IMG/VR virus record: IMGVR_UViG_3300009702_000006
Location: 1 to 41,232 of that record
Direction: 5' to 3' (one strand)
Source of the DNA: a virus
Length of the DNA: 41,232 bases
In this document: positions 124-21,364 of the stretch, one piece after another
How positions within the stretch are numbered: the first letter of the stretch is position 1
How the letters are laid out: each line of letters opens with the position of its first letter
Translations under genes and position numbers: made by a program
The notes under the pieces: generated by a model
The model's database searches: none
What the model was told of the DNA's origin: nothing
The model's input: the letters and a program-made list of their open reading frames with translations, nothing else

Positions 124-3059
124 AAGATACATTTATACATGGTAGTTTAGACCCTGATTTTGCAAATGAATTTCCTAAGCTTTATAGTGATCAACGAAAA
201 ACAGTAATAATTAAACCTTTTAAAGTAAAAGGAAAAATATTAAAAGTTGATGATGTCGATACCCAAATTAAACATGTTAAAGATATTGTTTCTAAACAAA
301 TTGACAAATTTGAATTTATAGCTAGTCGAGAGCCACAAGTTATAAATAGACAAAATGAAGAATTTTTAAAGGAGTTTGGCCAAGTTTTAAATGTTCTTTA
401 TAATAATAGTTTAGAACCTTTTGCAGTTGTAAGCCTTCGTGGCTTAACAAAAGAAAATATTCTCAAACAAGTTGAAACTTTTGTAAAAGGTCGTATTACT
501 TTTGACGGTTCGACTTGGAGATTATTTGAAACTAAAGGAATTGCTAAAGGTTTACAAGGTAAAGGATTTGTTGCTTCAGAAGTTAAAGCTACATTAAAAA
601 GTGGTGCTCCTTTAGTTACTAATGTTGTAGTCTATAATCCTGCATCTATTGTAGATATGGGGACAGAATTATTTAATAATTTAGCTAAATCTAAAAAATT
701 AATTAGGGTAGAAAAACAATTAGATGATACTACAAAATTTTTAGCTACATTAAATACTGGATTAATTCCAGAAAAGATTGCGACTAAAATACGTGATACT
801 ATTAAAACAACAAAAGCGGTATTTAAAGAAAAACCTGCTGATCCTTTATTAGAGGATGCTCAGATTCTTGTTAAAAGTAAAGAAGCTAGAGCTGCACGTA
901 TTGCTGGTGATGAGGTTGTAAGTTTACAGGGTGAAATTTCATCCCTAGCAGAAGCATCAGGTCGATCTCTAGAGGAACAATCTAGACGATTGACAAATCT
1001 ACTTGAGAATCGCCATTTGGTTGACGGTGAAACAAGTGTATTACCGAAAATAGCAAAGAAAGCCAATGAAGAAAATGCACAAGCATTAATAAAATTTAAA
1101 AAAGCTGAAGCTGAAGCTACTAAATTAGCAACACCAGAAGCAAAGAATAAAGCGTTAATTAAGGCTCGACAAACTTATGATCAAAAACTTTTTACTATTA
1201 AACAAAATGCAGAACGAACTAGACTACAGGTTGTCGCTGGGGCAAATAGTATAAGAAATGCGTCATCTGCTGAACTATCTTTTCTTGATAAATATGCTAA
1301 TACATTTGAAGAGTTATTAGCCCGTGAACAAGATAGTGGTATACAAATTAGTAAATTAGAATCTAGCGGAGGTGTTACTTCTTATGTTCCACGACAACTT
1401 AGTCAGGCAGCTAAGGATTTAAAACGAACCAATCCTCAACGCTTCGAGATCTTTAATCGTGAATTAGCTGTTCGTTTAGGTGAAGCCAAACAGCGTTCAA
1501 TTTTCGTAGACTCTACTTTACGAGAAATTAATCGTATATTCCGTGAAGATTTTGGTTTCAAAGGTGACTTTTTCGAGGAAGATTTCTTAAAGATATTGGC
1601 AAAGCGTCGTGCAAATAGTATTAAACAAATACATAAAGCTGAATTTATTAATTTTGGTATAAGTGAACTGGCGGGTAAAGGTAAAATTGGTGACGAAACT
1701 GTTACTGTTAAATCAGTATTAAGAAAAGCTAATTTAGATGTTAAGCATCCACGTTATGCTGATATAATCGATAAAAAAATTCTAGCAGACAGAGCAGATG
1801 AGCTTCTTGGTGTTAATAGAATATTAGAGAAAAGTGTTTTTAATAATAAAGGATTACGACAGGTCCTTAGTGTAGTAGAATCTTTTAATCGTAGATATAG
1901 AATACTATTAACATCTGTGTTTCCAGCTTTTCATACCAGAAATGAAATAGGAAATATTTATTTAAATTTACTAGCTGGCTATGATCCTATTAGATTCGCA
2001 CCTGAATTTAAAAAGGCTACTCAAATAATTATTGGTGCTAGACGTGGAACACTTGTAGGAAAAGATTTAGAATTATTAAATGAATTAAAAGATTTTAGAG
2101 TAATCAATAGTGGACAATTTGCTCTTGACTTAGAAGATATATCTAAGTTAGGGACTAATCCTATTGACCGTGCATTATCAGGACAAGGTAAGGCAGGTAT
2201 TCCATTCAAAGTGGGGCGTGAAGTAGGAAGGGATGTTGAAAATCATGCTCGTGTTTTCCATTATCTTGCAGCTCGCAGAGCTGGTTTAACTGTTATAGAA
2301 GCTGTTAAATCAATGAATAAGCATCTTTTTGACTATACTCAATTAGGTGAAATTGAAAAAACTGTTTTGCGTCCTACACTTTTATTCTATACATGGTTAC
2401 GAAAAAATATTCCGTTACAGATTATGTCTACAATTGAAGACCCACGATTAGCAAATTTGTATGCAGCAGCAACAAGTTTAAATAAAGATGATGTACCTGA
2501 TTATTTACGGGCATCACGTTCATTCTCTCTAGGGCAACGAGATCAAGTAGTTGGACAATTAGGTTTACCTATTGAGGACTTAAGTATTTTTAGCACAGCA
2601 GGTGCTGATCCAGGATTTTTTAATCAAACAGAAAGATTAGTATCTAGAATTCTTAGTCGTACAACACCTTTAATTAGATTTCCTCTTGAAGTGGCTAAAG
2701 GAAGTAGTTTTTTCAGTAATAAAAGATTATCAGAAATGTCCACTTTTGAATTAACTAATCTTTTTAATCCAGCAAGTCGTGTTGCTAGAACGGGCTCGGA
2801 GATAGTGGATAGTTTGGCTGGAAAAACACCTATAGGTGAAACATTAATTCGTAATCTCACTGGTATTAAAGTTTATAACTCTAAACCTGCACGGCGAAAT
2901 CTCGATCGTATAAAACGAAAAGCGTTACTATCAGGAAAATTTCAGCGAGAAGGCTTCCTTGTTATACCTAAACAACAATTCAAAAATGATCCTGAAGTTA
3001 TTGTATTAAAGAAACAGTTATCCGCAGCCAATAAGGCTTTAAGAGAGAGTAATAAATAA
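3..3059 (+). CDS. C-terminal part of the wrap-around giant virion-internal/ejection-type protein (starts at 40482; 1228 aa on the circle)
   Basis: The frame of the listed ORF 657-3059 stays open back to base 3; I translated it by hand and found no stop. It is in phase with the open + frame 40482-41232 across the 123-bp overlap. Its position and size match T7 gp16-type internal proteins. Confidence 0.85.
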   Translation: MKLASKRSKLINKGEANAKDISTYYHGSPFPFERFDITKSKDTFIHGSLDPDFANEFPKLYSDQRKTVIIKPFKVKGKILKVDDVDTQIKHVKDIVSKQIDKFEFIASREPQVINRQNEEFLKEFGQVLNVLYNNSLEPFAVVSLRGLTKENILKQVETFVKGRITFDGSTWRLFETKGIAKGLQGKGFVASEVKATLKSGAPLVTNVVVYNPASIVDMGTELFNNLAKSKKLIRVEKQLDDTTKFLATLNTGLIPEKIATKIRDTIKTTKAVFKEKPADPLLEDAQILVKSKEARAARIAGDEVVSLQGEISSLAEASGRSLEEQSRRLTNLLENRHLVDGETSVLPKIAKKANEENAQALIKFKKAEAEATKLATPEAKNKALIKARQTYDQKLFTIKQNAERTRLQVVAGANSIRNASSAELSFLDKYANTFEELLAREQDSGIQISKLESSGGVTSYVPRQLSQAAKDLKRTNPQRFEIFNRELAVRLGEAKQRSIFVDSTLREINRIFREDFGFKGDFFEEDFLKILAKRRANSIKQIHKAEFINFGISELAGKGKIGDETVTVKSVLRKANLDVKHPRYADIIDKKILADRADELLGVNRILEKSVFNNKGLRQVLSVVESFNRRYRILLTSVFPAFHTRNEIGNIYLNLLAGYDPIRFAPEFKKATQIIIGARRGTLVGKDLELLNELKDFRVINSGQFALDLEDISKLGTNPIDRALSGQGKAGIPFKVGREVGRDVENHARVFHYLAARRAGLTVIEAVKSMNKHLFDYTQLGEIEKTVLRPTLLFYTWLRKNIPLQIMSTIEDPRLANLYAAATSLNKDDVPDYLRASRSFSLGQRDQVVGQLGLPIEDLSIFSTAGADPGFFNQTERLVSRILSRTTPLIRFPLEVAKGSSFFSNKRLSEMSTFELTNLFNPASRVARTGSEIVDSLAGKTPIGETLIRNLTGIKVYNSKPARRNLDRIKRKALLSGKFQREGFLVIPKQQFKNDPEVIVLKKQLSAANKALRESNK

Positions 3060-5888: not shown

Positions 5889-6128
5889 CTAATCCTTATC
5901 TATCTCTACAATTTTTACTCGACAGATTCTAAGTTTTTCATATTTCGTATCTGTACCACCCCATTCACGCTTTGTTTTCATTAAAATGGGACAATAATAT
6001 TTCCATTGTTCATTAAAAATATCAGAATGACGTTCCCAATCATTTATAGTTTTGTTCCATGCAGCCCATCCATCGAAGTCTCTGCCGAGAACAAGCCGCT
6101 TTCGTTTTGCTTTTGGTTTCTTAATCAT
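5889..6128 (-). CDS. Hypothetical basic protein (start moved to MIKKPKAKRKR)
   Basis: The ORF 5889-6152 is trimmed to an internal ATG that sits just past the stop of the upstream gene. No recognisable domain. Confidence 0.5.
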   Translation of the reverse strand: MIKKPKAKRKRLVLGRDFDGWAAWNKTINDWERHSDIFNEQWKYYCPILMKTKREWGGTDTKYEKLRICRVKIVEIDKD

Positions 6129-6945
6129 TCCATTGTCTCGCAATCCGCACAAAGTGTTCTTGACCAGTCCACAATATCTGTGTGCCCTCGCGATTCTGAA
6201 GTTCAGCCTTTGCTTCGGCTATCGGGAAATAATGTTTCCCGCCGACTTCAACATCCCCGACCATGATGCGATCAATAAGACGATCCGGTCCGACAGTGGC
6301 AATCATATTAGTATTACTTTGTTCGTCTTGTTCTTTATAGGCTACCGCTGTATTGAGAAACTTTGCGTTCGGAATCTCGCTGAAGATTTGTACCAAAAGA
6401 TGTGTAAAGTATCGGCGGTAGGGCAGGGCATCGGTGTTCGGCATGACTCGCGGTAGATTAAACCAAAACTCGACGCCATCGAAATCGCTCAACATCTTCA
6501 CAATTTCAAATATATCGAATGAAAACTCGGTATAGTCGCCTTTGCGAAACGGACCTTCAAGGTCGAGCAGGATTTTACGCTCGCCAAAATCAATCAGCTT
6601 TTGAATCGCCGGGATCATTGTTTCCTGCCAACCTTCAACATCCCACAGGCTATTCGGCGAACCAGACCACTCGTCCATTTGTTCATCATAAGCGACTGGT
6701 GGTGTCATGCCGTAGATGATTTGAAAGCGGTCTTTCAAAGGTAAAAGTTTATCCAATTCGTCGGGCAAGAATCCCCAGCCAGCATACCATTTCGGATGCG
6801 TTGTAACGATCAGCGAGTTAAAGCCGAATAGTTCAGCACCGACAACCACATGTATGATCCCTGGCAGATCGGGCAACTCCGGTTTGCCGGTGATACCTGC
6901 AAGCGGATCATTTATCTGAATCCATGGAATGATATTAGCTGGCAT
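6121..6945 (-). CDS. Hypothetical protein in the higher-GC islet
   Basis: 274 aa with a strong SD (aaagggaggacgaaaATG). GC is visibly higher than in the flanking genes. No motif recognised. Confidence 0.6.
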   Translation of the reverse strand: MPANIIPWIQINDPLAGITGKPELPDLPGIIHVVVGAELFGFNSLIVTTHPKWYAGWGFLPDELDKLLPLKDRFQIIYGMTPPVAYDEQMDEWSGSPNSLWDVEGWQETMIPAIQKLIDFGERKILLDLEGPFRKGDYTEFSFDIFEIVKMLSDFDGVEFWFNLPRVMPNTDALPYRRYFTHLLVQIFSEIPNAKFLNTAVAYKEQDEQSNTNMIATVGPDRLIDRIMVGDVEVGGKHYFPIAEAKAELQNREGTQILWTGQEHFVRIARQWND

Positions 6946-7222
6946 TTTCGTCCTCCCTTTTGTTTTGTTTCTGTTCCATCAAATCTTCGACTAATGCGAA
7001 ATCGCAATTGCAATGCGACGAACCTAGTAAAGCAATGCACCAACTCTTATGGCCGATATATTGTTTCCATTCTTTCCACGCTCTTCGTCGTGCGTTCTGT
7101 TCAGCTTCGCGGATTGTCTTGGCCAGGAATTCGACGAACGCATCGTCAGGATCAACTCCTTCACTGACGCCAGTCTCGCACCAATCCTTATATATCTGTC
7201 TGGCAATCTGTTCAGGCGTCAT
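6935..7222 (-). CDS. Hypothetical protein in the higher-GC islet
   Basis: 95 aa with SD ggagaggaataaaATG. Cys/His cluster HKSWC...SSHCNC near the C-terminus. Confidence 0.6.
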   Translation of the reverse strand: MTPEQIARQIYKDWCETGVSEGVDPDDAFVEFLAKTIREAEQNARRRAWKEWKQYIGHKSWCIALLGSSHCNCDFALVEDLMEQKQNKREDENAS

Positions 7223-14540: not shown

Positions 14541-14614
14541 TACCCCCGATGGGGATCGAACCCATACTTTAGGGATTTTAAGTCCCTTACCTCTGCCAAT
14601 TGGGTTACGGGGGC
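14541..14614 (-). tRNA. tRNA with anticodon UAA (Leu by anticodon) but a class-I, short-variable-loop shape
   Basis: Sense sequence: GCCCCCG TA ACCC AATTGGCAG AGGT A AGGGA CTTAAAA TCCCT AAAGT ATGGG TTCGATC CCCAT CGGGGGT A. It has a 7-bp acceptor stem (G1-U72), a GG-containing D-loop, a canonical TTCGATC T-loop, U33, A73 and no encoded CCA. Confidence 0.85.
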
Positions 14615-17892: not shown

Positions 17893-18375
17893 CTAGAAAA
17901 TAGCTCCAGACAAATTGGCTCCATACAAATTGGCTCCAGACAAATTAGCTTCAGACAGATTAGCTATAATTAAACTGGCTTCAGTTAAGTCTGCTCTAGA
18001 TAAATCTGCCTTAGTCAAATTGGCCCCAGACAAATTGGCTTGATATAAGTTAGTTGAAATTAGAATGGCCCCAAATAAATAGGTTCCACATAAATCTACT
18101 CTAGATAAATCTGCTCTGAATAAATCTGCTTCGGATAAATCTACTCTAAATAAATCTGCTCCGGATAAATCAGCTCCTGACAAATTGGCTCCGGATAAAT
18201 TAGCTAAATATAAGTCAGTTGAAATTAGAATGGCTCCGGACAAATTGGCTCCGGACAAATTGGCTAGATATAAATTGGCTCCTGACAAATCAGCTCCTGA
18301 CAAATTGGCTCCGGACAAATCTGCTCCGGATAAATTGTAATATCGAAGATCGAGATTGTGAAGGTCGAGTGCCAT
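17893..18375 (-). CDS. Pentapeptide-repeat protein (160 aa)
   Basis: Almost the whole protein is A(D/N)LSG-type pentapeptides (ADLSGANLSGADLSG...). GGAG-containing SD upstream (gaaggagaaaccaATG). Confidence 0.85.
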   Translation of the reverse strand: MALDLHNLDLRYYNLSGADLSGANLSGADLSGANLYLANLSGANLSGAILISTDLYLANLSGANLSGADLSGADLFRVDLSEADLFRADLSRVDLCGTYLFGAILISTNLYQANLSGANLTKADLSRADLTEASLIIANLSEANLSGANLYGANLSGAIF

Positions 18376-18387
18376 TGGTTTCTCCTT

Positions 18388-18720
18388 CTAGAAAATGGTA
18401 TCGTCAAAATCTTCGTCTGTTAAATAGGCTCCGGTTAAATCAGCTCCAGATAAATTAGTTCCAGTTAAATTGGCTCCAGACAAATAGGCTCCAGATAAAT
18501 TAGCTTCAGTTAAATCTGCTAAGTATAAATCAGTTGAGATTAGAATAGCTTCAGGTAAATCAGCTCCAGTTAAATCAGCTCCAGTTAAATCAGCTTCAGA
18601 TAAATCAGTTCTAAATAAATTGGCTCCAGACAAATCGGTTCCGGATAAATTGGCTCCCGACAAATCTGCTCCAGACAAATTGTAATGTCGAAGATCGAGA
18701 TTGTGAAGGTCGAGTGCCAT
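18388..18720 (-). CDS. Pentapeptide-repeat protein (110 aa), tandem paralog of 17893-18375
   Basis: Same MALDLHNLDLR-YNLSGADLSGANLSG N-terminus. The 5' end plus SD region is 68/72 nt identical to the neighbour (18316-18387 vs 18661-18732). Confidence 0.85.
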   Translation of the reverse strand: MALDLHNLDLRHYNLSGADLSGANLSGTDLSGANLFRTDLSEADLTGADLTGADLPEAILISTDLYLADLTEANLSGAYLSGANLTGTNLSGADLTGAYLTDEDFDDTIF

Positions 18721-18733
18721 TTGTTTCTCCTTT

Positions 18734-18964
18734 TTATTTTACCAAAGAGTTCAATTCTTTCTTGATCCTTCTTGCAGTTTCACCCCTATAGGATTGTGCG
18801 TTGGCAAGGAAATAAATAATAATTCCTTTTGCATCGTCCAACCCATAATGGTCATCGACACTATGCAGGGACGCCATGGCGTCTAGATAGGGTTTGGCAC
18901 CAAAATAAACATTCTTCCAATCGTTGCGAATTTCCTGTGCGATTTTGTAGATAGGTCGAGTCAT
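18734..18964 (-). CDS. Hypothetical 76-aa protein, paralog A of 20410-20640
   Basis: Start trimmed to MTRPIYKIAQEIR (SD aaaaggagacctagaATG). 43/76 residues identical to paralog B by hand alignment. Confidence 0.6.
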   Translation of the reverse strand: MTRPIYKIAQEIRNDWKNVYFGAKPYLDAMASLHSVDDHYGLDDAKGIIIYFLANAQSYRGETARRIKKELNSLVK

Positions 18965-18996
18965 TCTAGGTCTCCTTTTTGGATGGTTCATGGAAC

Positions 18997-19056: not shown

Positions 19057-19245
19057 TTATTCCAAACCACCTTTCCTGTGAGGGTGAGAGATAACACAAA
19101 TAACACCATTTTGTATAAAAATGGTGTTGTTACGTTTTGTTTTTGACCGTGTTTTGTGTCCGAGAAAACGCATATAGCGTTGTCCGGATTTTTCGAGTTC
19201 TAGTTCACGCCGCAGCAGTTTACGTTCGTTTTTTTCGTGTTTCAT
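19057..19245 (-). CDS. Small basic hypothetical protein (62 aa)
   Basis: The ATG overlaps the stop of the upstream 57-aa gene as ATGA (19242-19245). Lys/Arg-rich. Confidence 0.5.
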   Translation of the reverse strand: MKHEKNERKLLRRELELEKSGQRYMRFLGHKTRSKTKRNNTIFIQNGVICVISHPHRKGGLE

Positions 19246-19415
19246 ACTTTGATAACTTTCCGTTTTGTTGGGGGTGTTGGGTCGATATATGTTGTCCGTG
19301 TGCGACCGCGATAATATATAATCACGGGTTTGGTGGGTTTGGTGCCAGCTAGTGATAAGAACCAGTCAATAATGGCTCTATTCTCCGACGGTTCGTTAGA
19401 AACGTAAGTTTCCAT
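19242..19415 (-). CDS. Small hypothetical protein (57 aa; start trimmed to METYVSNEP)
   Basis: SD aaaaaggagaaaaataATG. The longer listed ORF (to 19565) reads through the 12-bp repeat of the neighbouring gene in another frame. Confidence 0.5.
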   Translation of the reverse strand: METYVSNEPSENRAIIDWFLSLAGTKPTKPVIIYYRGRTRTTYIDPTPPTKRKVIKV

Positions 19416-19442: not shown

Positions 19443-19466
19443 CGTATATCTTGCGAACGGCATAGG
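19443..19466. repeat. Left arm of a perfect 24-bp inverted repeat
   Basis: cgtatatcttgcgaacggcatagg is the exact reverse complement of 20014-20037. Confidence 0.95.
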
Positions 19467-19482
19467 GGTTGTGGGTTGTTGG

Positions 19483-19980
19483 TTAGTTTTCGACAGGTTC
19501 GTCGACAGGTTCGTCGACAGGTTCGTTGACAGGTTCGTGGTTGAGGGTGCCCAAAAGGTAGACACGGGCTTGTTCCCTCAATTCCTTGTTGGGTTCCTTG
19601 CATGCCAGTTTGAAAGCTTTACGAACCGCTTTCACGTTTGGGGTCATGCCGAGAAGGTGCTTTGTTGCCCATGGGATGTTTTTCCCAGTGATGCTATAGT
19701 CAATTTCACAATCGTTGGGGACAGTGAATCGACTCAGCTTGCTGTCTAGCAAGTTTCGGGCGGCATCTTCGAGGTCTGACGCGGCAGTGTACAACCAGTC
19801 CGCGAACCCGTTGGGATTGTTGGATCCCTTTGTGTAGATGGACAACGCTTTGTCAAGGGCAGGACCAATTGGACATTCACTATTGTGATTGTCCAAACTG
19901 GCGATTAGGTCGCCTAGTGCGACCATAGCTTCGGCTTGTGTTGCCGTTCCGGTGTTTAGATTCTTTGCGAGATTGAACAT
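19483..19980 (-). CDS. Hypothetical 165-aa protein with a C-terminal (EPVD/N)4 acidic repeat
   Basis: ATG start with aaaggaaataggtgaccctATG upstream. It ends HEPVNEPVDEPVDEPVEN. The inverted repeat brackets it exactly. Confidence 0.6.
   Translation of the reverse strand: MFNLAKNLNTGTATQAEAMVALGDLIASLDNHNSECPIGPALDKALSIYTKGSNNPNGFADWLYTAASDLEDAARNLLDSKLSRFTVPNDCEIDYSITGKNIPWATKHLLGMTPNVKAVRKAFKLACKEPNKELREQARVYLLGTLNHEPVNEPVDEPVDEPVEN
19491..19538. repeat. 12-bp tandem repeat, 4 copies (cgacaggttcgt)
   Basis: Three perfect copies and one with a single mismatch. In frame, encoding the EPVD repeats. Confidence 0.9.
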
Positions 19981-20013
19981 AGGGTCACCTATTTCCTTTC
20001 GGTTAAGGGTAGT

Positions 20014-20037
20014 CCTATGCCGTTCGCAAGATATACG
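20014..20037. repeat. Right arm of the perfect 24-bp inverted repeat
   Basis: cctatgccgttcgcaagatatacg is the reverse complement of 19443-19466. Confidence 0.95.
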
Positions 20038-20387
20038 CGAGAAATTGTAGGGCTATGTAGGCATATCGGTAACTTGTGCTATGATGCGTTTTTTCGGCCT
20101 TTGCAGACCTAAGTCTATCGCACCATAGCGGCAGTTTCGCCCGTAACGTATGTACTACCCATACGCTACTGTGCAGTTGGCCAGACCGTACGTTTATACC
20201 GTACTCGGTTCGCCCGTAGGCTCGCGACTCGGGGGTAGAGAGTATCTGCACACTCTCTATTACTACCGCTACAATCCGGTAGCATGGCCTTATACCGATA
20301 TTCAGTTGTTAACGACTTCGTGGGCGTCTACCACCTAGGCAGACCCGCCGGCGACCGCGAGGATAAACTCGCCGTCGCCGGCGTTTT
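20038..20387 (+). ncRNA. Candidate structured plus-strand RNA, antisense to the early arm (hypothesis)
   Basis: About 370 nt with no SD-preceded ORF on either strand and high GC. Hairpins at 20078-20129, 20147-20165, 20236-20259 and 20263-20282. A possible extended -10 (TGcTATGAT, 20077-20085). It ends in tandem + strand terminators. Confidence 0.3.
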
Positions 20388-20407
20388 CCACGGCGTCGCC
20401 GTGGTTT
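20347..20407 (+). terminator. Tandem GC-rich hairpins each followed by a T-run on the + strand
   Basis: GCCGGCGAC-c-GCGAG-gataaa-CTCGC-c-GTCGCCGGC then gTTTT. This is followed by CCACGGC-gtc-GCCGTGG then TTT. On the minus strand neither hairpin is followed by a T-run. Confidence 0.55.
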
Positions 20408-20409
20408 CG

Positions 20410-20640
20410 TCATCCGAGCATCCCCTTCAACTCGGCCTTGATGCGGCGAGCGTCAGGACCTCTCCAAGTTTGAGCGTTGGACAGGAAGTAGAGTACGATA
20501 CTCCGTGCATCGTCAAGCCCGTACTTGTCCTTGACCGAGGACACACACCCCATAGCCGATAGGTAGGGTTTGGCGAAGGGACTAACGCGTCCCCACTTCT
20601 CGCGGACTTCATCCGCTATCACGTACAAGGGTCTAGTCAT
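20410..20640 (-). CDS. Hypothetical 76-aa protein, paralog B of 18734-18964 (high GC)
   Basis: Start trimmed to MTRPLYVIADEVR (SD ggagagttgcaATG). Same length as paralog A and collinear with it. Confidence 0.6.
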   Translation of the reverse strand: MTRPLYVIADEVREKWGRVSPFAKPYLSAMGCVSSVKDKYGLDDARSIVLYFLSNAQTWRGPDARRIKAELKGMLG

Positions 20641-20896: not shown

Positions 20897-21048
20897 GCCG
20901 ATACGGTTTAAGTAGTACTTGATTCTTTTTCAGTAATAGTGTATACTTATAAAGTAATACTGAAACCGTGGCCGAATTGTCGAGAAGTCTATCCAGATAC
21001 CCTATCTTCACAATTTTGCGCCAAATACCTAGTTTCACAGGGTCGAAA

Positions 21049-21226
21049 TAAATTATAACTTTAATCCAGTATCGCTTTAATAAAGTATTACTTTAACCGG
21101 CTGCCGCCCCGCGACCTACAGTATCACTTTAATAAAGTGATACTTTAATAAAGTATAACTTTAAGCGGCGGGGCATAAAGTGATACTTGAATACGGAATC
21201 GCGACTCGCGTTAAAGTGGCACTTTA
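21049..21226. promoter_or_regulatory. Phased array of eight TAAAGT-N3-ACTTTA palindromes (operator, iteron, centromere or pac-type sites)
   Basis: Perfect copies at 21081, 21133, 21149 and 21212. One-mismatch copies at 21049, 21117 and 21176. A degenerate copy at 21065. They form two blocks of three units on an exact 16-bp register, each unit separated by a single A, plus two single units. GC-rich spacers carry CGCGAC three times (21110, 21200, 21230). Confidence 0.7.
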
Positions 21227-21364
21227 AGCCGCGACACTTGTTGCGTTTTCTTCCTTCTCCTCCTCAGTGTCGTTCGGTGGGCAATGGGGTAGGGTGTTCG
21301 ATAGGATTCCGAAAGGTGCTGAAGTATATATACCAGTATATCGACGTTGAGTCGTTAAAATATT

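What the first reader, a model, noticed from the sequence alone, without database searches (positions are those of the whole stretch)
19443..20037. Perfect 24-bp inverted repeat exactly bracketing a single gene
cgtatatcttgcgaacggcatagg (19443-19466) is the exact reverse complement of 20014-20037. A perfect 24-nt inverted match is not expected by chance in 41 kb. The arms sit 16 nt past the stop and 33 nt upstream of the start of the 165-aa gene.

Read 5'-cctatgccgttcgcaagatatacg-3', each arm points outward. The left arm is 27 nt upstream of the ATG of the 57-aa gene on the minus strand. The right arm immediately precedes the ORF-poor structured region on the plus strand.

There are three readings:
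(i) a regulatory or promoter-type element used twice in divergent orientation;
(ii) a 24-bp dsRNA stem in the minus-strand transcript that loops out the whole 165-aa mRNA, giving an RNase III processing site;
(iii) ends of an invertible or mobile mini-cassette, although no recombinase is encoded here.
Basis: partly seen in the sequence, partly recalled or inferred. Interest (0 to 1): 0.7.

Follow-up and report, generated by a model that had tools for sequence, protein, structure and literature searches.

The report
RNA stem enclosing a phage gene
The perfect 24-base inverted repeat is real and is best explained as a long-range RNA stem that closes off the mRNA of this phage's first-early-type gene; related phages keep the same stem around their first early gene with completely different sequences, and the most likely role is a cutting site for the host double-strand RNA nuclease RNase III.

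Summary
Bases 19443-19466 and 20014-20037 are perfect reverse complements. There are only two copies in the window, and they enclose the 165-aa minus-strand gene (33 nt before its ATG, 16 nt after its stop).

In all 8 related phage lineages with enough flanking sequence (TerL 47-64% identical), the syntenic first early gene is enclosed by its own helix. That gene is 141-177 aa and partly detectable as a homolog. The helices are 19-27 bp long and unrelated in sequence. The geometry is constant: the 5' arm ends 15-34 nt before the ATG with the ribosome-binding site left free, and the 3' arm starts 11-38 nt after the stop.

All 13 non-Watson-Crick positions embedded in these helices are G·U on the coding strand. 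None is A·C. So pairing is selected in the sense RNA, not in duplex DNA.

Controls:
- Within the window, the next-best of 57 genes has a 13-bp helix.
- Of 19 two-copy inverted pairs in about 1 Mb of unrelated phage DNA, none brackets a gene.

I found no recombinase, transposase, target-site duplication, alternative orientation, promoter consensus or additional motif copies.

RNase III cleavage is inferred from the helix length of about two helical turns; it was not tested. This is a new variant of a known kind of element, of moderate to good interest.

The parts
20014..20037 (-). 5' arm of the long-range helix as read in the minus-strand (sense) RNA: CGUAUAUCUUGCGAACGGCAUAGG. With 20038 paired to 19442 as a terminal G·U, the helix is 25 bp.
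19981..20013 (-). 33-nt spacer between the 5' arm and the ATG. It carries the Shine-Dalgarno-like AAAGGAAAUAGGUG and lies outside the helix.
   Evidence: The same layout, with the 5' arm 15-34 nt before the start, is seen in all related lineages.
19483..19980 (-). Enclosed gene: a 165-aa protein of unknown function, predicted all-alpha. It belongs to a fast-evolving family that forms the first early gene in related phages.
19467..19482 (-). 16-nt spacer between the stop codon and the 3' arm.
19443..19466 (-). 3' arm of the helix in the sense RNA: CCUAUGCCGUUCGCAAGAUAUACG. It lies in the 67-nt intercistronic gap, 27 nt before the ATG of the next gene.
19242..19415 (-). Downstream 57-aa gene, translationally coupled (ATGA overlap) to the 62-aa ORF 19057-19245. 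Cleavage in the helix would separate it from the enclosed cistron.
20038..20409 (-). 372-nt GC-rich, ORF-free, highly structured leader directly upstream of the 5' arm. Cleavage in the helix would detach it from the enclosed cistron.
   Evidence: sense z about -8. An equivalent structured, GC-enriched leader is present in 5 related lineages. Rfam finds nothing.
20410..20640 (-). 76-aa phrog_13953-family gene (high-GC paralog of 18734-18991) upstream on the same strand. It is presumably on the same early transcript.

Best explanation
The two arms are the halves of a long-range RNA helix (24 Watson-Crick pairs plus one terminal G·U). The helix forms in the minus-strand early transcript and encloses the complete cistron of the 165-aa gene. 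The ribosome-binding site and start codon stay unpaired just inside the loop.

The helix is a conserved feature of this phage family's first early gene. Its most likely function is as a substrate for the host double-strand-specific endonuclease RNase III. Cleavage would cut the cistron free from the long structured leader upstream and from the downstream cistrons, leaving a monocistronic mRNA whose 5' and 3' ends remain clamped by the residual half-helix. This is analogous to the stalks that flank 16S and 23S rRNA and to the RNase III sites between T7 early genes.

Shown computationally: the existence and uniqueness of the helix, its conservation by complementarity, its sense-strand specificity, its geometry, and its length class.

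Inferred: that the arms are co-transcribed, that the helix forms in vivo, that RNase III cuts it, and what cleavage does to stability or translation.

The confidence of 0.55 is for the whole statement including RNase III cleavage. For the narrower claim that this is a functional sense-RNA helix enclosing the cistron, my confidence is about 0.85.
For: 1. The arms pair as a 25-bp helix in both the MFE and the centroid of the 1,021-nt minus-strand RNA. The duplex energy between 80 nt upstream and 80 nt downstream is -51.4 kcal/mol, against -16.8 +/- 3.6 for shuffles.

2. The helix is unique in the genome. Among 57 genes, the best helix between 80 nt upstream and 80 nt downstream is 25 bp for this gene, 13 for the next best, and 8 at the median.

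3. It is conserved without sequence conservation. In every related lineage with enough flank, the first early gene is enclosed by a helix with unrelated arm sequences: L172 24 bp, L119 25, L089/L091/L092 group 26, L104/L101 23, L100 25, L174 26 (a blind test), and L087 19 contiguous (26 of 27). L171 shows a partial pair cut by the contig end. Two further early genes are enclosed in the same way: L089 96-100 aa with 27 bp, and L087 69 aa with 22 bp.

4. The enclosed proteins are homologs or syntenic equivalents: P0212-P0214 at 30-50% identity; profile hits to L119 at 2e-13, the L089 group at 3e-5 and L104 at 1.4e-3.

5. The signal is strand-specific. All 13 embedded non-Watson-Crick positions are G·U in the sense RNA and none is A·C (11:0, binomial p = 0.001, plus 2). 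Sense helices are 22-27 bp, against 12-25 bp when only antisense-compatible pairs are allowed.

6. The geometry is constant. The 5' arm ends 15-34 nt before the ATG, leaving the SD free, and the 3' arm starts 11-38 nt after the stop.

7. Controls. In family loci, 5 of 6 (6 of 7 with L119) strictly two-copy perfect inverted pairs enclose one ORF filling at least 85% of the spacer. The figure is 0 of 19 in about 1 Mb of other phage loci (Fisher p = 3e-5) and about 10% for direct repeats.

8. The helix length clusters at about two A-form turns. The idealised E. coli RNase III substrate is 22 bp (PMC3867540), and RNase III binds duplexes flanking 16S and 23S rRNA (PMC8708148).
Against: - There are no transcript data, so co-transcription of the two arms, formation of the helix in vivo and cleavage are all untested.
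- The host is unknown, so its RNase III and that enzyme's sequence antideterminants cannot be checked.
- The phage encodes no recognisable dsRNA-binding protein or RNase III.
- The window's helix is perfect Watson-Crick, so by itself it carries no strand information. The sense-strand inference comes from relatives.
- Homology of the enclosed protein is not detectable for L100 (blastp E = 0.009 only), L174 or L087, where the argument rests on synteny and size.
- A stem that works without cleavage would give the same comparative signature. Examples are an end clamp against exonucleases or RNase E, or an insulator from the structured leader.
- The lineages were all found through one marker (TerL or the protein itself). 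Several come from short contigs.
Confidence: 0.55

Rival explanations
1. The same sense-RNA helix exists but works without endonucleolytic cleavage. It could clamp the 5' and 3' ends of the first early cistron to block 5'-end-dependent RNase E/J attack and 3' exonucleases. Alternatively, it could insulate the ribosome-binding site from mispairing with the long GC-rich structured leader.
For: All the comparative evidence for an RNA helix applies equally. The SD is always left just inside the loop. A strongly structured leader lies directly upstream in all lineages tested.
Against: A pure clamp or insulator gives no obvious reason for helix lengths to cluster so tightly at about two helical turns (22-27 bp in 9 of 10 helices). 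Nothing excludes it directly.
Confidence: 0.25
2. DNA-level element: the arms are the ends of an invertible segment or of a tiny mobile cassette (IS/MITE/MPME-like) carrying the 165-aa gene.
For: A perfect 24-bp terminal inverted repeat with sharp boundaries around a single small ORF. The element lies in a GC-rich part of a low-GC genome. Two short contigs of homologs end at or near the 3' arm (L171, L173), which could reflect population heterogeneity.
Against: - No integrase, invertase or transposase in the 41-kb genome, and no family hit for the enclosed protein.
- No target-site duplication.
- One orientation only, in 3 assemblies and in every lineage.
- The position is syntenic in all relatives rather than variable.
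- The 24-mer is absent from IMG/VR and from 185,579 species genomes.
- The arms of relatives are imperfect at the DNA level, exclusively in the way that preserves sense-RNA pairing (13 G·U: 0 A·C).
- MPME elements, by contrast, are identical copies at different sites in near-identical phages (PMC3029335).
Confidence: 0.04
3. A protein-binding or promoter element duplicated in divergent orientation. One copy would drive or regulate the 57-aa gene leftward, and the other would drive or regulate rightward transcription into the ORF-poor region.
For: In other phages, some perfect inverted pairs do belong to multi-copy promoter-like motif families present in both orientations (L007, L026, L070). 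The left arm is 27 nt upstream of a start codon.
Against: There is no sigma-70-like -35/-10 at either arm. Only two copies exist and there are no degenerate copies. No phage RNA polymerase was detected. Relatives keep complementarity but not sequence, and their mismatches are strand-asymmetric, which a duplex-DNA binding site would not produce. The arm's internal dyad symmetry is weak (14/24).
Confidence: 0.04
4. A non-functional by-product: a recent inverted micro-duplication or recombination scar that happens to flank the gene.
For: Perfect identity of the arms is what a very recent event would give. The region is mosaic, with two phrog_13953 paralogs of very different GC.
Against: The same architecture recurs independently with different sequences in 8 lineages, and it is the only such helix among all genes of each genome tested.
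Confidence: 0.02

Closest known systems
RNase III processing stalks flanking 16S and 23S rRNA in bacterial rRNA operons
   Same: A long-range helix is formed by sequences on either side of a whole functional RNA within one precursor transcript. The helix is of the two-turn dsRNA class that RNase III recognises (PMC8708148; PMC3867540). Here the helices are 19-27 bp and enclose 0.2-0.55 kb.
   Different: This helix encloses a protein-coding cistron in a phage early transcript, not an rRNA. Its sequence is not conserved at all between relatives. Cleavage is untested.
RNase III sites between early genes of coliphage T7 (R0.3, R0.5, R1, R1.1, R1.3). This is from my own knowledge of Dunn & Studier 1983, which is cited in PMC8708148.
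   Same: The elements sit in the early polycistronic mRNA of a lytic phage and delimit individual cistrons, including the first early gene. They depend on a host enzyme.
   Different: T7 sites are local hairpins with internal loops placed between genes. Here a single helix is built from two arms 250-550 nt apart and brackets the whole gene. Local 20-bp hairpins resembling the T7 type do occur between downstream small genes in the L089 group.
icaR mRNA 5'UTR-3'UTR pairing in Staphylococcus aureus (PMC3868564)
   Same: Intramolecular pairing between sequences upstream and downstream of one coding sequence creates an RNase III substrate.
   Different: In icaR the 3'UTR pairs with the Shine-Dalgarno region and blocks initiation. 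Here the SD and AUG are left outside the helix in every lineage, so translational masking is not the design. Here the helix is also much longer and near-perfect.
Mycobacteriophage mobile elements MPME1/MPME2 (ultra-small mobile elements; PMC3029335)
   Same: A unit of about 0.4-0.6 kb in a phage genome with terminal inverted repeats around one small ORF.
   Different: MPMEs are identical copies found at different sites in closely related phages, with a 6-bp addition next to IR-L. The unit here is single-copy and syntenic, has lineage-specific arms, and shows RNA-type (G·U) compensation.

Membership tests
RNase III-type long-range processing helix (rRNA-stalk type) | Continuous dsRNA of about two A-form helical turns (about 20-22 bp or more) | tested here: met
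   Window: 24 WC pairs plus 1 terminal G·U. Relatives: 22-27 bp, and L087 19 contiguous or 26 of 27. Reference length 22 bp from PMC3867540.
RNase III-type long-range processing helix (rRNA-stalk type) | The two arms flank a complete functional RNA and lie on the same strand of one transcription unit | tested here: inconclusive
   The flanking geometry is met exactly. Both arms and all neighbouring genes are on the minus strand, and the terminator-like sites scanned on that strand lie outside the enclosed gene (at 20383-20370 in the leader and at 19128-19102 downstream). No transcript data exist.
RNase III-type long-range processing helix (rRNA-stalk type) | Pairing maintained in evolution by compensatory change in the transcribed strand | tested here: met
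   Eight lineages have unrelated arm sequences but conserved helices. Embedded non-WC positions are 13 G·U: 0 A·C on the sense strand.
RNase III-type long-range processing helix (rRNA-stalk type) | Staggered double cleavage by RNase III in vivo or in vitro | not testable with these tools
   This needs RNA end mapping or an enzyme assay.
T7-type RNase III site | Local hairpin (short loop, often with an internal loop) in an intercistronic region | tested here: not met
   The arms are 547 nt apart and are not locally self-complementary (14/24).
icaR-type 5'UTR-3'UTR translational masking | The 3' region pairs with the Shine-Dalgarno sequence or start codon | tested here: not met
   The helix ends 33 nt before the ATG in the window and 15-34 nt before it in relatives. 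The SD-like purine tract lies between the helix and the ATG.
Site-specific invertible DNA segment (Hin/Gin/Cin, fimS type) | Recombinase gene in or near the element | tested here: not met
   No integrase, invertase or resolvase among the window ORFs scanned with Pfam and PHROGs.
Site-specific invertible DNA segment (Hin/Gin/Cin, fimS type) | Both orientations present in populations or relatives | tested here: not met
   The orientation is the same in 3 assemblies, and the gene is co-oriented with the early arm in all lineages. Read-level data are not available.
IS / MITE / MPME-type mini mobile element | Multiple copies or variable insertion sites; flanking target duplication or added bases; transposase | tested here: not met
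   Single copy. The 24-mer is absent from IMG/VR and GTDB representative genomes. The position is syntenic in relatives. There is no direct repeat flanking the arms. The enclosed protein has no family hit. MPME features are from PMC3029335.
Duplicated promoter or operator | Match to a promoter consensus, or recurrence of the motif in the genome or in relatives | tested here: not met
   The promoter scan finds nothing at the arms. Only two copies exist. Arm sequences are unrelated in relatives.

The most novel reading that the evidence does not exclude
This phage family may have a previously undescribed kind of expression module. A lineage-specific helix of about 25 bp would define an excisable 'RNA cassette' for the hypervariable first early gene, which is probably a host-takeover or anti-defence gene. 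The helix would be retained while the enclosed gene diverges beyond recognition or is swapped. The excised mRNA, with its two ends held together, would behave as a pseudo-circular, exonuclease-resistant message, or the helix would be read by a factor other than RNase III. Two short homolog contigs break at or near the 3' arm (L171, L173). This fits, weakly, with the arms also being preferred mosaic junctions.
Probability: 0.15. Interest if true: 0.8.

Novelty: new variant of a known kind. Interest (0 to 1): 0.62.

Why it matters
Long-range helices that enclose a whole RNA are textbook for rRNA maturation. 5'-3' UTR pairing in bacterial mRNAs is known from very few cases. Here a whole protein-coding cistron, the first early gene of an uncultivated phage family, is enclosed by a two-turn helix. 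The helix has been kept across deep divergence purely by complementarity, with a clean sense-strand G·U signature.

If RNase III cuts it, phages would have a second architectural solution, besides T7-type local hairpins, for carving monocistronic messages out of early transcripts and detaching them from long structured leaders.

It also has practical uses:
- It gives a simple, searchable signature: a helix between about 80 nt upstream and about 80 nt downstream of a gene.
- It marks the first early gene, a likely host-takeover or anti-defence gene, in unannotated phage genomes.
- It is a compact natural part for insulating cistrons in synthetic operons.

Tried and rejected
- Exact 24-mer search in IMG/VR and in GTDB representative genomes: no hits. 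The arms are therefore not a dispersed or host-borne repeat.
- Megablast and blastn of the region against 50,697 phage records: only the phrog_13953 gene matches.
- Rfam at gathering threshold and at E <= 1: nothing matches the arms or the structured leader.
- Promoter and terminator scan: no promoter-like site at either arm.
- Search for degenerate extra copies of the motif: at chance level.
- Target-site duplication: none visible in the flanks.
- Pfam and PHROGs on the enclosed protein and its neighbours: no function found.
- The word-indexed protein search found only the protein itself. The full phmmer search was needed to find 3 homologs.
- AlphaFold2 with a 4-sequence alignment gave mean pLDDT 48. 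No fold search was run because its results would be meaningless.
- The L175 and L176 look-ups were uninformative, because those contigs start next to TerL and lack the early arm.
- My early idea was that the whole GC-rich block (about 19.2-20.7 kb) is simply a foreign island. I revised it. A GC-enriched, highly structured non-coding leader upstream of the first early gene is a family feature. The duplicated phrog_13953 gene with discordant GC still suggests mosaic acquisition of part of the block.
- Many long 'inverted repeats' in other phage loci turned out to be repeated palindromic hairpins (L031, L062) or multi-copy motifs (L070). They were excluded from the controls by requiring strictly two copies.
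- I did not run the count of structure pairs. The arms of different lineages cannot be aligned except by fitting them to the helix, which would be circular. I used ungapped extension and strand-symmetric counting instead.

Full report
**1. The observation**

The window is a complete 41,232-bp metagenomic phage contig of about 36% GC.
- A minus-strand replication/early arm carries primase, PolA, an SNF2 helicase, a methylase, a ParB-like protein and pentapeptide-repeat proteins.
- A plus-strand structural arm starts with a TerS-like gene (21365) and TerL (21914).
- Its TerL is at most 25% identical to any phage in INPHARED.

The reported inverted repeat is exactly as described. Bases 19443-19466 and 20014-20037 are 24 nt long, 100% complementary and 547 nt apart. 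Even allowing 3 mismatches there are only these two copies, against none in 100 shuffles. Weaker matches are at chance level.

The arms lie 33 nt upstream of the ATG and 16 nt downstream of the stop of the 165-aa minus-strand ORF 19483-19980. The left arm is 27 nt upstream of the ATG of the next gene, 57 aa, 19242-19415.

Two other assemblies of the same phage, L005 (Logan) and L006 (ENA), are 99.97% identical. Both carry the two arms and the same orientation, so the repeat is not an assembly artefact.

**2. Base rate in phages**

I examined 598 kb from 84 unrelated phage loci. Perfect inverted pairs of 24 nt or more within 3 kb that are not palindromes occur about four times (L033, L073, L007, L026). 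Several of these belong to multi-copy, promoter-like motif families. Many other apparent pairs are repeated palindromic hairpins. A long perfect inverted pair is therefore far beyond random expectation but is not rare in phages. The informative property is what the pair encloses.

**3. Relatives**

The 165-aa protein has no Pfam or PHROG match, and the word-indexed search found only the protein itself. A full phmmer search of 1.84 billion representatives found three homologs at 50%, 40% and 30% identity.

Relatives of the phage were collected through TerL at 47-64% identity. They share the divergent early(-)/structural(+) architecture.

In every lineage with enough flanking sequence, the first gene of the early arm is enclosed by its own inverted pair with an unrelated sequence. 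The table gives helix lengths counting G·U pairs.

| Lineage | Enclosed gene | Helix |
|---|---|---|
| window | 165 aa | 25 bp |
| L172 | 172 aa | 24 bp |
| L119 | 150 aa | 25 bp |
| L088/L089/L091/L092 group | 141 aa | 26 bp |
| L101/L104 | 152 aa | 23 bp |
| L100 | 177 aa | 25 bp |
| L174 | 150 aa | 26 bp |
| L087 | 143 aa | 19 bp contiguous (26 of 27 positions) |

- L174 was examined blind after the hypothesis had been formed. Its other 12 early genes have only 5-8-nt matches.
- L171 shows the inner part of such a pair before the contig ends.
- L173 ends 9 nt after the stop and cannot be tested.
- Two further early genes are enclosed in the same way: L089 96-100 aa with 27 bp, and L087 69 aa with 22 bp.

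Homology of the enclosed proteins was tested with a profile built from the window protein and its three homologs. It detects the enclosed proteins of L119 (E = 2e-13) and of the L089 group (3e-5). After one iteration it detects L104 (1.4e-3). L100, L174 and L087 are linked only by synteny, size and weak similarity.

**4. Geometry and uniqueness**

On the coding strand, the 5' arm ends 15-34 nt before the start codon, so the purine-rich ribosome-binding site lies between the helix and the AUG. The 3' arm begins 11-38 nt after the stop.

Within the window, the best helix between the 80 nt upstream and the 80 nt downstream of each of 57 genes is 25 bp for the 165-aa gene. The next best is 13 and the median is 8. 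The same outlier behaviour holds in L087, L089 and L174.

I then counted strictly two-copy perfect inverted pairs of 15 nt or more that enclose a single ORF filling at least 85% of the spacer:
- Family loci: 5 of 6, or 6 of 7 with L119.
- About 1 Mb of other phage loci: 0 of 19 (Fisher p = 3e-5).
- Direct repeats: only about 10%.

**5. RNA or DNA**

Each perfect core was extended without gaps, and mismatches were classified symmetrically. All embedded non-Watson-Crick positions flanked by Watson-Crick pairs are G·U on the coding strand. There are 11 in nine helices plus 2 in L087. None is A·C, which would be G·U only in the antisense RNA (binomial p = 0.001 for 11:0). Allowing only antisense-compatible pairs shortens the helices to 12-25 bp, whereas the sense helices are 22-27 bp.

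What is selected is therefore pairing in the sense transcript. A duplex-DNA site for a recombinase, transposase, repressor or RNA polymerase would not produce this asymmetry.

The window's own helix is perfect Watson-Crick and so carries no strand information by itself. It does dominate the MFE and centroid structures of the 1,021-nt sense RNA. Its duplex energy of -51.4 kcal/mol is far beyond shuffles at -16.8 +/- 3.6.

**6. Mechanism**

The helices cluster at about two A-form turns. The idealised E. coli RNase III substrate is 22 bp (PMC3867540). RNase III initiates rRNA maturation by binding duplexes that flank 16S and 23S (PMC8708148). From my own knowledge, T7 early mRNA is cut by host RNase III between cistrons, including around the first early gene 0.3.

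I therefore think the most likely mechanism runs as follows:
- The early transcript runs from the divergence region through a long structured leader, the enclosed cistron and the downstream genes.
- Once the 3' arm is transcribed, the helix closes.
- Host RNase III cuts both strands.
- This releases a monocistronic mRNA whose ends stay paired by the residual half-helix, separated from the leader and from the downstream cistrons.

Only the existence, conservation, strand and geometry of the helix are shown. Co-transcription, folding in vivo, cleavage and its consequences are inferred.

The main rival is that the same helix acts without cleavage, as an end clamp or as an insulator from the leader. 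The phage encodes no RNase III or dsRBD protein, so a host factor is required.

**7. Rejected readings**

Promoter or operator:
- No sigma-70-like site at the arms.
- No further copies.
- No detectable phage RNA polymerase.
- No sequence conservation in relatives.

Invertible or mobile cassette:
- No recombinase or transposase and no target duplication.
- A single orientation everywhere, at a syntenic position.
- The 24-mer is absent from IMG/VR and from 185,579 species genomes.
- MPME mini-elements, the closest mobile analogue, are identical copies at different sites in near-identical phages (PMC3029335).

icaR-type masking (PMC3868564) does not fit, because the SD is never in the helix.

**8. 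Surroundings**

The 372 nt directly upstream of the 5' arm (20038-20409) is ORF-free, 54% GC and very strongly structured (sense z about -8, antisense about -4 to -5). It has no Rfam match. Equivalent GC-enriched, structured non-coding leaders precede the 5' arm in L089, L174, L119, L104 and L100 (sense z from -2.8 to -8.2, with the strand not resolved). This region is therefore also a family feature.

In the window, a high-GC phrog_13953 gene (20410-20640) sits inside this non-coding zone. It is 57% identical to a low-GC paralog at 18734-18991, which suggests mosaic acquisition.

**9. Verdict**

I found no description of a cistron-enclosing, covariation-maintained helix in a dsDNA phage in the searchable literature. 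I rate it a new variant of a known kind of element (RNase III-type long-range stalks and 5'-3' UTR pairing), with interest about 0.6.

Noticed in passing
window 20038-20409 (also L089 7881-8252, L174 7263-7634, L119 969-1340, L104 7488-7859, L100 2454-2825): An ORF-free, GC-enriched, unusually structured leader lies directly upstream of the 5' arm in all six lineages tested. Window sense z is about -8 with MFE -162.6 kcal/mol. There is no Rfam match even at E <= 1. It could be a large structured 5' leader or ncRNA, or a DNA-level element such as an origin. Relatives fold about equally well on both strands.
   Followed up: partly
window 21044-21233 (exact copies at 21081, 21133, 21149, 21212); L089 7980, L091 2154, L092 2524: An array of palindromic TAAAGTnnnACTTTA sites lies in the divergence region upstream of the TerS-like gene. 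The same palindrome occurs about 100 nt upstream of the 5' arm in the L089 group, and L119 has a one-mismatch version. It is probably an operator or iteron for a dimeric DNA-binding protein.
   Followed up: partly
window 18734-18991 and 20410-20640 (minus strand): Two paralogs of the widespread small phage protein family phrog_13953 are 57% identical in protein but have very different GC (about 0.41 against about 0.57). This suggests that part of the early module was acquired from a higher-GC relative. The nearest homologs of the 165-aa gene are on contigs of 47-48% GC (L171, L172).
   Followed up: partly
L088 23-67 and 370-414; L089 6536-6580, 6779-6820, 6928-6958; L091 123-167 and 638-682; L092 661-705 and 1008-1052: A 45-nt perfect palindrome (AAAATATAAGCTAACATTTAAcatatTTAAATGTTAGCTTATATTT, 20-bp stem) is repeated between successive small early genes. 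Those genes encode Gly/Tyr/Asp-rich repeat proteins. The palindromes look like T7-type intercistronic hairpins or bidirectional terminators, in the same early arm that carries the long-range helices.
   Followed up: no
L171 (685 nt) and L173 (3979 nt): Contigs carrying homologs of the 165-aa gene end inside the 3' arm (L171) or 9 nt after the stop codon (L173). This may be low coverage, or it may reflect assembly-graph branching where downstream neighbours differ in the population.
   Followed up: no
window 17893-18720: Two tandem pentapeptide-repeat genes (160 and 110 aa) have a 15-nt periodicity. A 34-nt direct repeat lies at their 5' ends (18343-18376 and 18688-18721).
   Followed up: no
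window 19099-19131: A 14-bp AT-rich hairpin followed by T-runs on both strands looks like a bidirectional terminator. It lies inside the 3' part of the 62-aa ORF 19057-19245, just before the low-GC phrog_13953 gene. It may mark the end of the acquired module, or the ORF may be shorter than called.
   Followed up: no
window 14541-14614: A tRNA-Leu (anticodon TAA) lies on the minus strand within the replication arm.
   Followed up: no
window 6001-7000 and 657-3059: A second GC-rich patch (0.45) covers the 274-aa ORF 6121-6945, which has no family hit. The 800-aa ORF 657-3059 also has no Pfam or PHROG hit.
   Followed up: no
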